NCBI RefSeq assembly: GCF_988243305.1
Contig: NZ_OZ547136.1
Direction: 5' to 3' (one strand)
DNA length: 64,000 bases
Part shown: positions 1 to 3,000 of the stretch, piece after piece
Numbering within the stretch: the first letter of the stretch is position 1
Layout: each line of letters begins with the position of its first letter
Program-made: the position numbers

Positions 1-3000
1 TGCGACCACATAGCGCCCCGGCGGCATGGCGCATAATTTGTCCCGCCAGGCGAGATTTCGCTGATGCATCAGCACATCGTACAGCGATTGACTGAACGTA
101 TTAGGCAGCGTTATTTCATTATTTTGCGGCGGCGCATTCAGCCACCAGCTCATCATTTGTTGCAGCAACCGTGCATTGGTGTGCCAGTGGGTCAGCGTAT
201 CGTCCAGCAGTGCCAGTCCGTTGTCAGGGAGCTGGAGCAACATGGCAATCTGGTTTTCAGCCCCTTCCAGTTCAATCACGGGTTTATGTTGTTGCTTCGC
301 CGCCTGCAATAGCTGGTAATCGATACCGTATTCTGCCCGCAGCCCCAGTTTTTGTGCCTGCGTCGCCTGAAGAACCATCGCGATTTGCCACAGCGGTTGG
401 GTAGAAAAGAGTGAGGTAGAAATGCCCATCTCCTGGCTAATGTGCTGCAGGTTTTGGAGTTGCTCCTCGCTAATGCGCTCTTCCAGCGCCTCGCAGGCAG
501 GCAAATTAGCAAAAGGCGTATCGCTGGTGGAAACATCCGCCTCGACGATCAGCGCATCGGCGTTTTTGAGCTTTTTGAGCAAACGGGTGGGCAGGGGAGC
601 CATATCGTGGCTGCCCATATGAATACTGCCGAGCAGATGAAAATGGCGATTGCCGGGAAGAGAGATATCGATAGCAGGCCAGGTGTAATGATTACCGTGC
701 AGCGCGGCCCAAAGCGTTTTTACCCGGTACAACAGATCCATACGACCTCCCTTTGTGAAATATCATGCTAGCGCGCGGGGAGGGATGGCGCAAATGGAGT
801 TATGAGGCTTGTTCAGTGGTAGCTTAAATATGATCGAAAAATTGTTTTTGCTTTGAAACGAAAGACTGCACCGGTGTTGGTGGCGTCAAAATCGCCGAGG
901 CGTTCCCTGAAGGCCGGGGCAGCCCACATGGATGTGGGCTGAGGGCGCGTTTTACAGGGATGTTACCTCGCGCCCGACCCGGTAGCCGCAAGGGATAAGC
1001 TGAGGGTACCGCGCAGCGGCGATTTTGTTCGCCAGAGCCCGGGGGTGCAGGGGGCGGCGGCGATTGGCCGCCCCCTGCGCGCTCCCTGCGCCAGTCACTT
1101 TATATGGCATGACTCATAAAAGGAGCGCAACAAGAACTGGATCTCACAAACGCATTAAGTAAATACCAATCATTCCTTCGGTTTAAACCGCAGCAACCGG
1201 TTGGCGTTACTCACTACGGTAATCGACGAGAGCGCCATTGCCGCTCCGGCAACCACCGGGTTAAGCAGTGTTCCAGTGAACGGCCACAAAATACCGGCGG
1301 CGACCGGAATACCAATGCTGTTGTAGATAAACGCACCGAGCAGGTTCTGCTTCATATTGCGCAGCGTTGCGCGGGAAATCGCGAGCGCATCTGCAACACC
1401 CATCAGGCTATGGCGCATCAGGGTAATCGCCGCGGTTTCAATGGCAACATCACTGCCGCCACCCATCGCAATACCGACATCCGCCTGGGCCAGCGCTGGC
1501 GCGTCGTTAATGCCGTCGCCCACCATTGCCACCTGACGTCCTTCACTTTGCAGACGTTTGATCGCTTCGGCTTTACCGTCCGGCAGCACCCCGGCGATCA
1601 CCTCATCAATCCCTGCTTCTTTGGCGATCGCATTGGCGGTGGTTGGGTTATCCCCGGTTAGCATCACCAGACGATATCCCGCTTTATGCAGGCGTTGCAG
1701 CGCCGCCACGCTATCACTACGCAACGGATCGCGTACTGCCAGCAAGGCCACCGCTTTCCCGTCAACCGCCAGCAGCACAGGCGTTGCCCCTTGCGATGCC
1801 TGAGCTGAAATATCTGCCTCAATCGCTTTAGTATCAACTTGCTGGTCATTTAACAGCGCCTGATTGCCCAGCAATACCGCATGACCTTCAGCTTCACCGC
1901 TCACACCCAGCCCGCGCAATGTGCGGAAACCGTTGACCTGCGGTAGCTGCATATCACCTGCTTTATCGAGGATCGCCCGTGCCAGCGGGTGGCTGGAACC
2001 TTGCTCCAGCGCCGCCGCCAGACGCAATGCTTGCGCTTCATCAACATCAGCAAATGTTTTTACTGCGACAACCTGCGGCTTCCCTTCGGTCAGCGTCCCG
2101 GTTTTATCGAACACCACGGTGTCGAGCGTACTGGCGCGTTGCAGCGCGTCGGCGTCCCGCACCAGCACACCAAACTCAGCCGCCCGCCCGACGCCCGAAA
2201 TAATCGACATCGGCGTCGCCAGTCCCAGCGCACACGGACAGGCGATAATCAGCACCGTGGTGGCAATCACCAGGGTATAGACAATCTGCGGTGCCGGACC
2301 AAAGAAATACCAGATTGCCGCACTGATCAGCGCAATGACTACCACCACCGGCACAAACACAGCGGAGATTTTATCCGCCAGTTGACCGATTTCTGGCTTG
2401 CTGCTCTGGGCCTGGCGCACCATGCGAATGATCCGTGACAGCGTAGTATGGCTGCCGACCGCACTGGCACGAAACAGCACACTGCCGTCCTGTACCACTG
2501 TCCCGGCATGGACGCTATCGCCTTCGCCTTTTTGCTGCGGGATAGGTTCGCCCGTCAGCATCGCTTCATCCAGCCACGCTTCGCCTTGAGTAATCTCACC
2601 ATCTACCGGCACACGGTCGCCGGTCGTCAGGCGCAGTAACATACCTGGCTGAACATCTGCCAGCGGCACGTTTTTTTCACCTTCGTCGGTGACCAGGCGC
2701 GCCGTCGGTGGGGTTAAATCGAGTAATTTCTCCAGCGCCTTAGAAGAACGCTGACGCGCGCGCGCTTCCAGCATATGGCCGAGATTGATCAGACCGATAA
2801 TCATCGCGCTGGCTTCGTAATAAAGATGTCGCGCTTCCATCGGGAACCACTGCGGCCACAGGTTGACGCTCATCGAATAGAGCCACGCCACGCCAGTACC
2901 TAGCGCCACCAGCGTATCCATCGTCGCTGCACCGTTCAGCAGGCTTTTCCATGCGCTGCGGTAAAAATGCCCGCCGGCGAAAACCATTACCGCCAGGGTT

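What the first reader, a model, noticed from the sequence alone, without database searches (positions are those of the whole stretch)
772..1169. ybaQ appears absent; its place is a GC-rich, hairpin-rich non-coding segment
Between the ybaP start (741) and the copA stop (1170), where K-12 as I recall it encodes the small regulator YbaQ on the plus strand, there is no ORF of 60 aa or more in any frame. Instead the ~400-bp interval is unusually GC-rich for an E. coli intergenic region and contains strong palindromes: agcccacat-gg-atgtgggct near 921-940 and a 9-bp GC stem gggggcggc / gccgccccc with an 8-nt loop near 1050-1075. Neither hairpin is followed by a U-tract on either strand, so they are not classic intrinsic terminators. 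This could be a structured sRNA, a degenerate repeat element, or the scar of a deletion or replacement.
Basis: partly seen in the sequence, partly recalled or inferred. Interest (0 to 1): 0.3.

Follow-up and report, generated by a model that had tools for sequence, protein, structure and literature searches.

The report
CsrA-type RNA repeat replaces ybaQ
In this E. coli strain the small antitoxin-like gene ybaQ really is missing, and in its place sits an intact copy of a conserved, unannotated 0.3-kb structured repeat that nearly every E. coli carries elsewhere and that looks like a docking site for the global RNA-binding regulator CsrA.

Summary
There is no ybaQ or higB anywhere in the 64-kb window, no ORF of 60 aa or more in 772-1169, and both palindromes are at the stated coordinates without U-tracts.

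It is not a deletion scar. About 325 bp (c. 839-1160) is an intact copy of an enterobacterial intergenic repeat. 5425 of 5426 complete E. coli genomes carry it. K-12 has it at lysO-aqpZ and yohP-dusC. Klebsiella has about 13 copies.

The allele with the repeat at ybaP-copA occurs in about 346 of 5426 genomes. It shares K-12's higB-deletion junction, so it probably derives from a ybaQ+ ancestor.

The 156-nt core (879-1034) folds as a long closing stem capped by two hairpins with loops AUGGAU and AGGGAU. Covariation is strong: 96.5% of cells paired and 15 of 42 pairs compensatory. It is a sub-threshold relative of Rfam TwoAYGGAY (31.5 bits against a cut-off of 43). A Pluralibacter homologue passes, and a reciprocal covariance model finds true members.

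Both loops match the CsrA/RsmE site CANGGANG. Most likely it is a + strand RNA that binds a CsrA dimer (about 40%). Rivals are a selfish mobile repeat or a REP-like 3'-end element. Transcription and CsrA binding are untested.

The parts
1..741 (-). 5' part of ybaP (TraB/GumN family), start codon at 739-741; left anchor of the variable interval
   Evidence: Annotation of the 100% identical genome NZ_CP018957; 97% identical to K-12.
742..838 (.). Sequence shared with K-12 upstream of ybaQ. It includes the higB-deletion junction and a higB 3' remnant (c. 803-838) and a -10-like TATGAT at 829-834.
   Evidence: Alignments A1 and A4 and the pairwise alignment. Homology to K-12 ends at about 838. The promoter reading is my inference; the promoter scan found none.
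839..878 (+). 5' leader of the repeat element, moderately conserved between loci and genera (TTGTTTTTGC..AAAGACnGCAC)
   Evidence: Multi-locus alignment; BLAST matches to Kluyvera and Pseudocitrobacter copies start at 836-844.
879..1034 (+). Core of the element: TwoAYGGAY-like structured domain
   Evidence: Rfam RF01731 at 31.5 bits, E 0.007, full model 1-168. Own covariance model R1 at 180 bits, the only hit in the window. Covariation.
887..1027 (+). P1 closing stem: 887-894 pairs with 1020-1027 (CAAAAUCG/CGAUUUUG)
   Evidence: 8 pairs, 98% of cells paired, 3 pairs with compensatory changes.
921..940 (+). Hairpin 1: 7-bp stem 921-927/934-940 with hexaloop AUGGAU; ACAUGGAUGU at 926-935 matches WCANGGANGW
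   Evidence: Stem pairs 925:936 and 926:935 covary (CG/AU and GC/AU).
943..975 (+). Hairpin 2: outer stem 943-949/969-975, inner pairs 954-955/962-963, hexaloop AGGGAU; ACAGGGAUGU at 954-963 matches WCANGGANGW
   Evidence: Pair 954:963 is AU in 25 sequences and GC in 24.
1009..1019 (+). Small hairpin CCGC-GCA-GCGG inside the 3' strand of the core
   Evidence: 4 pairs, 100% paired, 3 with compensatory changes (CCGC/GCGG, UUGC/GCAA, CCAC/GUGG).
1047..1078 (+).
   Evidence: Compensatory variants GGGGGAGGA/UCCUCCCCC, GAGGG/CCCUC and ACA/UGU occur in other copies.
1079..1130 (+). Module 3: stem GCGCUCC / GGAGCGC (1079-1085 with 1124-1130) closing a variable region. The 3' arm looks like a Shine-Dalgarno sequence (AAAGGAGCGC) but is base-paired.
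   Evidence: MFE fold. Covariation CUCC/GGAG to CUCU/AGAG (Enterobacter) and CCU/AGG to CCC/GGG (Klebsiella).
1131..1160 (+). 3' tail of the element, weakly conserved. Other Escherichia copies carry ATG(ATG) here; this copy has none.
   Evidence: Alignments.
1170..3674 (-). copA. Its stop codon (1170-1172, TGA; TAA in K-12) is the right-hand breakpoint. The K-12 copA terminator hairpin is absent.

Best explanation
Window c. 839-1160 is one intact copy of a roughly 0.3-kb intergenic repeat that belongs to the core genome of Escherichia and its relatives. In this lineage it replaced ybaQ (an orphan HigA-type antitoxin gene), the BIME/REP cluster and the copA terminator, in an ancestor that had already lost higB. 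The element is selected as a structured RNA read on the + strand. A long irregular closing stem presents two adjacent hairpins whose C-G-closed hexaloops (AUGGAU, AGGGAU) are the hallmark of the TwoAYGGAY motif and match the CsrA/RsmE recognition sequence. A GC hairpin and a third closed stem follow. The most likely mechanism is that the two GGA loops, 28 nt apart, bind the two RNA-binding faces of one CsrA dimer. The RNA would then act as a small decoy for CsrA, or recruit CsrA to whatever transcript carries it. Shown here: the absence of ybaQ, the identity as a repeat, the structure and covariation, the conservation, and the kinship to TwoAYGGAY. Inferred: the strand, the polarity of the replacement, any transcription, and CsrA binding. 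I put about 0.9 on the identity claims and about 0.4 on the CsrA mechanism.
For: Repeat identity: positions 865-1135 match at 90-95% in 5425 of 5426 complete E. coli genomes, at 1-8 places each. Copies lie at lysO-aqpZ and yohP-dusC. Klebsiella has about 13 places per chromosome.

Allele: the full 428-bp interval occurs in 346 genomes. K-12 has ybaQ plus three REPs, and B2-type strains have higB plus ybaQ. The window shares K-12's higB-deletion junction.

Structure: 96.5% of cells are paired, against 32-47% when partners are slid. 15 of 42 pairs have changes on both sides, and 0 of 500 shuffles reach the observed values. The 3' modules also covary.

Strand: G-U/U-G 58 against A-C/C-A 12 once the innermost loop-closing pair is set aside (41 with it included). 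The GGA motifs are on the + strand only.

Family: Rfam TwoAYGGAY aligns over the full model at 31.5 bits. Homologues score 36.9 (E. albertii), 42.7 (Citrobacter youngae) and 46.3 (Pluralibacter, above the cut-off of 43). My enterobacterial model finds Rfam-called TwoAYGGAY RNAs in Firmicutes at E 7e-9 and 3e-7.

CsrA link: both loops match WCANGGANGW. That motif occurs only 9 times in 128 kb of both strands, and these two are 28 nt apart. Rfam places TwoAYGGAY in the CsrB clan CL00106. An RMfam paper proposed CsrA binding for TwoAYGGAY (PMC4333381).

Constraint: the element is more conserved than the neighbouring lysO coding sequence, at 94.6 against 89.0% for E. coli versus E. albertii and 96.6 against 91.0% versus E. 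whittamii.
Against: The window copy is below the Rfam gathering score (31.5 against 43). Loop 2 is AGGGAU, which is not strictly AYGGAY. No sigma-70-like promoter or intrinsic terminator was found for the element here or at the two K-12 loci, so transcription of the + strand is not shown. The gene-level tables of the E. coli CsrA CLIP-seq study show no call at dusC or ybjE, although reads from repeats may have been dropped. The element lies in either orientation at the same locus in different strains, which is easier to explain if orientation, and hence co-transcription, does not matter. Only one Firmicute copy sits next to flagellar genes, so gene context gives no support. G-T wobble would also be tolerated in a single-stranded DNA hairpin.
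Confidence: 0.5

Rival explanations
1. A selfish, non-autonomous mobile DNA element (MITE- or REPIN-like). The long closing stem and conserved hairpins would be recognition structures, perhaps as single-stranded DNA, for a transposase encoded elsewhere. The element would have no host function, and the ybaP-copA copy would be a recent hop into a permissive site.
For: It is multi-copy, with genus-specific sequence types and copy numbers from 2-8 in E. coli to about 13 in Klebsiella. It favours the 3' ends of genes: 36 copies between convergent genes, 32 between tandem genes, 9 between divergent genes. It lies in either orientation at the same loci. It is present or absent at ybaP-copA. It sits next to REPs in Klebsiella. 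It is multi-copy in unrelated phyla.
Against: I saw no target-site duplication and only a 5-nt terminal inverted match. No transposase or any other protein recurs near copies. Two loci are occupied in essentially all E. coli and in sister species, and the element is more conserved than the adjacent coding sequence. The cross-phylum invariance of CAUGGAUG loops with freely covarying stems fits a conserved trans-acting binder. No copy was found in phage or viral collections.
Confidence: 0.25
2. A REP/BIME-like 3'-end element. The stable hairpins would protect upstream mRNAs from 3' exonucleases, or stop read-through between convergent genes. Here the element would take over the role of the lost copA terminator and REPs. 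It would work in either orientation, and the GGA loops would be incidental.
For: It sits exactly where K-12 has three REPs and the copA terminator hairpin. It is enriched between convergent genes. Both strands fold very stably (-145 and -137 kcal/mol). Orientation varies between strains.
Against: There is no U-tract on either strand. This reading does not explain the invariant loop sequence across phyla or the G-U against A-C strand asymmetry. In K-12 the aqpZ terminator is retained next to the element, so the element is not needed as a terminator there.
Confidence: 0.2
3. A decayed remnant of ybaQ, or a small unannotated protein gene.
For: The position corresponds to ybaQ in K-12. An SD-like AAAGGAG is followed by ATG in some Escherichia copies.
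Against: tblastn with YbaQ and HigB finds nothing. The sequence has no similarity to the K-12 interval between about 838 and 1170. The longest ORF is 55 aa. Copies differ by single-base indels that are compensated in stems, not in reading frames. The SD-like sequence is one arm of a covarying stem, and the ATG is missing in this copy and in Klebsiella.
Confidence: 0.02

Closest known systems
TwoAYGGAY RNA motif (Rfam RF01731; Weinberg et al. 2010, PMC2864571)
   Same: Both have a long closing P1 stem capped by two adjacent hairpins with conserved AYGGAY-type hexaloops. Both are multi-copy per genome (Psychromonas in the original alignment). Both occur in gamma-proteobacteria and gut Firmicutes. 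The Rfam model aligns over its full length, and a reciprocal covariance model finds true members.
   Different: The window copy scores 31.5 bits, below the cut-off of 43. Loop 2 is ARGGAY. The enterobacterial element carries an extra internal hairpin, a 5' leader, a GC hairpin and a third closed stem (about 325 nt against 168). I did not find these sequences in the stored part of the 2010 alignment.
CsrB/CsrC (Csr/Rsm decoy sRNAs, Rfam clan CL00106)
   Same: Both carry GGA motifs in C-G-closed hairpin loops. CsrB has 22 GGA, of which 9 are CAGGANG and 1 is CAAGGAUG. Both are in the same Rfam clan.
   Different: The element has only two strong sites rather than about 20. It has no sequence homology to CsrB. 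No recognisable promoter or terminator was found. It is a dispersed repeat rather than a single regulated gene. CsrA binding is untested.
REP/BIME elements of E. coli
   Same: Both are structured extragenic repeats at the 3' ends of genes, often between convergent genes. The element occupies the place of three REPs here and neighbours REPs in Klebsiella.
   Different: The sequence is unrelated, the unit is about 325 bp rather than about 35 bp, and there are 2-8 copies rather than hundreds. The loops are conserved across phyla.
HigB-HigA (YbaQ) type II toxin-antitoxin cassette
   Same: It occupies the same chromosomal slot between ybaP and copA in other strains.
   Different: Nothing of ybaQ remains in the window. 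Only a short higB 3' remnant and the deletion junction are left.

Membership tests
TwoAYGGAY (RF01731) | Score at or above Rfam's gathering threshold (43 bits) | tested here: not met
   Window 886-1025 scores 31.5 bits, E 0.007. Homologous copies score 36.9 (E. albertii), 42.7 (C. youngae) and 46.3 (Pluralibacter, passes).
TwoAYGGAY (RF01731) | Two adjacent terminal loops carrying AYGGAY | tested here: inconclusive
   Loop 1 is AUGGAU, an exact match. Loop 2 is AGGGAU, with a purine at position 2. Other enterobacterial copies have AUGGAU, ACGGAC or AAGGAC.
TwoAYGGAY (RF01731) | Long P1 stem closing the two hairpins, supported by covariation | tested here: met
   9 helices, 96.5% of cells paired, 15 of 42 pairs compensatory. 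The Rfam alignment spans model positions 1-168.
TwoAYGGAY (RF01731) | Reciprocal similarity to curated members | tested here: met
   Model R1, built only from enterobacterial copies, hits the intervals Rfam calls TwoAYGGAY in L051 (43.3 bits, E 7e-9) and L050 (36.8 bits, E 3e-7), full length. Caveat: those loci were retrieved with a pattern that fixes 22 nt of the two loops.
Csr/Rsm decoy sRNA (CsrB, CsrC) | GGA motifs exposed in hairpin loops matching the CsrA site | tested here: met
   ACAUGGAUGU at 926-935 and ACAGGGAUGU at 954-963, both at hairpin tips.
Csr/Rsm decoy sRNA (CsrB, CsrC) | Own promoter and intrinsic terminator defining an sRNA gene | tested here: not met
   No promoter-like or terminator-like site for the element in the window or at the two K-12 loci. 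These are simple consensus scans only.
Csr/Rsm decoy sRNA (CsrB, CsrC) | Binds and titrates CsrA | not testable with these tools
   Needs EMSA, CLIP or genetics. The published CLIP-seq gene tables show no call at dusC or ybjE.
REP/BIME | REP consensus palindrome, hundreds of copies per genome | tested here: not met
   The K-12 interval aligns to REPs but the window interval does not. The K-12 interval query gives 14-62 places per genome, against 1-8 for the element.
MITE / REPIN-type mobile repeat | Terminal inverted repeats, target-site duplication, cognate transposase | tested here: inconclusive
   No duplication was seen at four junction pairs. Only UUGUU/AACAA matches at the two ends. No recurrent neighbouring protein was found. 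There is presence/absence and orientation polymorphism.
YbaQ / HigA antitoxin gene | ORF or pseudogene homologous to YbaQ | tested here: not met
   tblastn best E 3.6 in the whole window.
Intrinsic terminator | GC-rich hairpin followed by a U-tract | tested here: not met
   None in 742-1169 on either strand.

The most novel reading that the evidence does not exclude
E. coli and its relatives keep a small family of dispersed, unannotated RNA modules, each a high-affinity two-site clamp for one CsrA dimer. These would form a previously unrecognised layer of the Csr network beside CsrB and CsrC. The modules move or flip between permissive 3'-end sites, so strains differ in which transcripts carry them. 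In 6% of strains one has displaced the ybaQ antitoxin gene and may now be driven by its promoter. Because K-12 has two intact copies, this would also give the first genetically tractable handle on the orphan TwoAYGGAY motif, which has been known since 2010.
Probability: 0.25. Interest if true: 0.7.

Novelty: new variant of a known kind. Interest (0 to 1): 0.45.

Why it matters
TwoAYGGAY has been an orphan motif since 2010, known mainly from gut metagenomes and organisms that are hard to work with. If it has an extended relative in the core genome of E. coli, including two intact copies in K-12, its function becomes directly testable by deletion, over-expression and CsrA binding. Such a relative would also be invisible to annotation, because it falls below the Rfam cut-off. 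If the CsrA reading holds, the Csr regulon gains dispersed, strain-variable decoy or recruitment sites. For genome annotation, the result shows that 'ybaQ absent' in about 6% of E. coli is a clean cassette exchange at a hotspot, where TA module, REPs and structured repeat alternate. It is neither a deletion nor an assembly error.

Tried and rejected
Ideas rejected:
- A ybaQ remnant or frameshifted gene: rejected by tblastn.
- Box C or another high-copy repeat for the GC hairpin module: rejected, because 1040-1135 has only 1-5 places per genome.
- A coding mini-ORF behind the SD-like AAAGGAG: rejected, because the SD is one arm of a covarying stem and the ATG is not conserved.
- A first manual model of one long coaxial P1 with tandem G-A pairs: rejected in favour of a small internal hairpin (1009-1019), which covaries.
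- Contig L034, which seemed to show a second copy upstream of copA: it is a chimeric metagenome contig joining yegH, dusC and copA pieces, so I set it aside.

Checks that found nothing:
- A plasmid or phage origin. The 'plasmid' hits are mislabelled chromosome pieces. Phage and viral collections gave no match.
- An associated transposase or any recurrent neighbouring gene.
- Literature on the E. coli element, by locus names and by the sequence itself.
- Two expression sources: one paper is not held, and the other does not mention the loci.
- One literature query was badly chosen and wasted.
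Full report
**1. The observation**

The window opens inside ybaP (- strand, start codon 739-741), and copA (- strand) ends at 1170-1172. Between them lie 428 bp.
- No ORF of 60 aa or more overlaps 772-1169. The longest are 55, 52 and 45 aa.
- K-12 has ybaQ at this position, followed by three REP units.
- tblastn with K-12 YbaQ and with HigB from strain PA45B finds nothing anywhere in the 64 kb (best E 3.6 and 0.29). 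ybaQ is therefore truly absent, not shortened or frameshifted.
- Neither strand shows a U-tract terminator.
- GC is 64% over 865-1135, in the top 2.5% of windows of that size.
- The fold is far more stable than shuffled sequence (z = -4.5 and -5.3).

**2. What fills the gap**

Megablast of the interval against 5426 complete E. coli genomes gives two results.
- The whole 428 bp occurs, mostly at 100% identity, in about 346 genomes (6%). The feature under the match is always 'none'.
- Positions 865-1135 match at 90-95% in 5425 of 5426 genomes, at 1-8 places each.

The other places are:
- lysO-aqpZ;
- yohP-dusC;
- yegH-asmA.

In K-12 MG1655 my covariance model puts intact copies at 915,029-915,184 (+) and 2,229,219-2,229,374 (-). 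A truncated copy lacking both GGA hairpins lies at yegH-asmA.

Related copies at 77-87% identity occur in Klebsiella (about 13 per chromosome) and Citrobacter. The 'plasmid' records that carry them are chromosome fragments.

Alignment of copies from different loci and genera shows that the unit runs from about 839 to about 1160 in window coordinates. It consists of a 5' leader, a 156-nt core, a GC hairpin, a third closed stem and a short tail.

**3. How the allele arose**

Three alleles share the slot:
- higB + ybaQ, as in PA45B;
- ybaQ + REPs with higB deleted, as in K-12;
- the repeat, as in this window.

Homology of the window to K-12 runs through the higB-deletion junction (GCAAATGGAGTT, then a higB 3' remnant) and stops near 838. 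It resumes exactly at the copA stop codon, which is TGA here and TAA in K-12. Because the window shares the deletion junction, I infer that the repeat replaced ybaQ, the REPs and the copA terminator in a higB-deleted, ybaQ+ ancestor. This is an inference from about 35 nt of shared sequence.

The window copy is closest to lysO-aqpZ copies: 94% to K-12's and 97.5% to that of E. whittamii.

**4. Structure**

I aligned 50 distinct enterobacterial cores and named a structure of nine helices, then counted pairs.

| Measure | Observed | Control |
|---|---|---|
| Cells forming standard pairs | 96.5% | 32-47% with 3' partners slid by 1-3 columns |
| Pairs with changes on both sides | 15 of 42 | 4-10 with partners slid |
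| Covariation score | 0.225 | 0.03-0.08 with partners slid |
| Shuffles reaching the observed percentage paired or covariation score | 0 of 500 | - |

RNAalifold independently found 18 of 37 pairs with compensatory changes.

The architecture is as follows.
- P1 pairs 887-894 with 1020-1027.
- Further helices run inward (895-896/1005-1006, 904-907/992-995, 912-914/985-987, 915-918/978-981).
- These lead to hairpin 1 (921-940) and hairpin 2 (943-975).
- A small covarying hairpin lies at 1009-1019.
- The GC hairpin and the stem GCGCUCC/GGAGCGC also show compensatory changes.

The SD-like AAAGGAG is therefore one arm of a stem. The ATG that follows it in some Escherichia copies is missing here and in Klebsiella.

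G-U pairs outnumber A-C mismatches 58 to 12 once the loop-closing pair is set aside. With the position of the GGA motifs, this points to the + strand.

**5. Family**

Rfam's only notable hit is TwoAYGGAY (RF01731): 31.5 bits, E 0.007, full model length, below the cut-off of 43. Homologous copies score as follows.

| Copy | Bits |
|---|---|
| Window | 31.5 |
| E. albertii | 36.9 |
| Citrobacter youngae | 42.7 |
| Pluralibacter gergoviae | 46.3 (above the cut-off) |
| Lachnospiraceae and CAG:882 loci (same pattern search) | 76-110 |

A pattern built from the two loops retrieved 114 stretches from species-representative genomes. They come from Enterobacteriaceae, Shewanella, Pseudomonas, SAR92-type gamma-proteobacteria, Selenomonadaceae and Lachnospiraceae, usually with several copies per genome.

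My model R1, built only from enterobacterial cores, finds just one copy in the window (180 bits). It also finds the Rfam-called RNAs in Firmicutes at E 7e-9 and 3e-7. Those loci share the search pattern by construction, which weakens this test.

Weinberg et al. describe the motif as two AYGGAY loops closed by an often very long P1, multi-copy in Psychromonas. The E. coli, Klebsiella and Citrobacter hairpin sequences are not in the stored part of their alignment.

I therefore treat the element as an extended enterobacterial variant of TwoAYGGAY, not as a curated member.

**6. Likely mechanism**

Both loops read CA-N-GGA-N-G with a closing C-G pair. From my own knowledge, this is the RsmE/CsrA recognition consensus (A/U)CANGGANG(U/A) of Schubert et al. 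2007. Hairpin 2 (UUACAGGGAUGU) matches 11 of 12 positions of the CsrA SELEX consensus RUACARGGAUGU of Dubey et al. 2005.
- The 10-mer occurs 9 times in 128 kb of both strands (5 expected). Two of those are 28 nt apart on one strand at hairpin tips.
- That spacing fits bridging of a CsrA dimer. Mercante et al. 2009 give a range of 10-63 nt, again from memory.
- Rfam places TwoAYGGAY in the same clan as CsrB.
- An RMfam study proposed CsrA binding for it.
- CsrB itself has 22 GGA motifs, mostly CAGGAUG.

The element also looks constrained.
- It is present in virtually all E. coli.
- It is more conserved than the adjacent lysO coding sequence across species: 94.6 against 89.0% (E. albertii) and 96.6 against 91.0% (E. 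whittamii).

My best mechanism is a + strand RNA that clamps one CsrA dimer, acting as a decoy or recruiting CsrA to the host transcript. I give this about 40%.

**7. What argues otherwise**

- No promoter or terminator is detectable for the element.
- The -10-like TATGAT at 829-834, inherited from the ybaQ upstream region, could start an RNA near the element's 5' end. This is only a reading of the sequence.
- Copies prefer gene 3' ends: 36 between convergent genes, 32 between tandem genes, 9 between divergent genes.
- No neighbouring protein recurs.
- Klebsiella copies are flanked by REPs.
- At all three conserved E. coli loci, different strains carry the element in opposite orientations with non-homologous short flanks.

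These traits fit a mobile or REP-like element as well. However, I found no target duplications, no convincing terminal repeats and no copy in phage collections. The CsrA CLIP-seq gene tables are silent on the loci. No paper on the E. coli element was found.

**8. Verdict**

The segment is neither a scar nor a new kind of system. It is an unannotated, extended relative of a known orphan RNA motif that happens to be a core, low-copy repeat of E. coli. Interest is moderate. The allele itself is ordinary strain variation at a hotspot. The value lies in making TwoAYGGAY and a possible extra CsrA-binding layer testable in K-12.

Noticed in passing
L003/L006 (lysO-aqpZ), L128/L007 (yohP-dusC), L129/L036 (yegH-asmA): At all three conserved E. 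coli loci, different strains carry the roughly 270-bp element in opposite orientation between collinear flanking genes. The alleles are only about 87-92% identical, and their short flanks are unrelated. The breakpoints fall at or in the stop codons of the neighbouring genes (aqpZ TAA against TAG).
   Followed up: partly
L129:5487-5759 (K-12 yegH-asmA, NC_000913.3 2,139,486-2,139,758): K-12 keeps only the 3' half of a copy here, without either GGA hairpin, next to a REP. Other Escherichia genomes (L036, L058, L068, L094) have a complete copy.
   Followed up: partly
L009, L104-L122 (Klebsiella copies): Klebsiella copies are usually bracketed by REP-like palindromes (GCCGGATGGCGGCT..CTTATCCGGCCTAC). 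They extend about 100 nt further 3' than the E. coli element, in two tail subfamilies. The copy number is about 13.
   Followed up: partly
window 1170-1172: The copA stop codon is TGA here and TAA in K-12 and PA45B, exactly at the right-hand breakpoint. The hairpin downstream of copA in K-12 (ATGCGCCACCC..GCGCAT) is absent, so copA transcripts should read into the antisense of the element.
   Followed up: no
window 829-834: A near-consensus -10 hexamer, TATGAT, is inherited from the region upstream of ybaQ and lies about 7-10 nt before the 5' boundary of the element. There is no matching -35. It might drive the element from the former ybaQ promoter.
   Followed up: no
L020, L034, L075: Three metagenome-assembled genomes are labelled Desulfacinum, Proteobacteria and Sporobacter termitidis. 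Their contigs carry Klebsiella- or E. coli-type copies (L034 is 98% identical to the window across copA), so these are likely contaminants. L034 is also chimeric, joining yegH, dusC and copA pieces through the repeat.
   Followed up: partly
L028, L029, L051, L052 (Selenomonadaceae, Firmicutes CAG:882): TwoAYGGAY copies cluster, with up to five within 7 kb and divergent pairs about 330 bp apart. In L028 and L029 they lie among phage-like genes (small terminase, structural proteins). One copy (L063) lies just downstream of fliD-fliS.
   Followed up: no
window 1-64000: The overall GC of the window is 54%, with an sd of 7.6% in 271-nt windows. By my recollection this is higher than the E. coli average of about 51%. 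I did not look at what drives it.
   Followed up: no
L070 versus L005 (Escherichia sp. E1V33 versus K-12, lysO-aqpZ): The element is 99.4% identical between these two genomes while the adjacent lysO gene is only 91.7% identical. This suggests recent recombination or gene conversion limited to the intergenic element.
   Followed up: no
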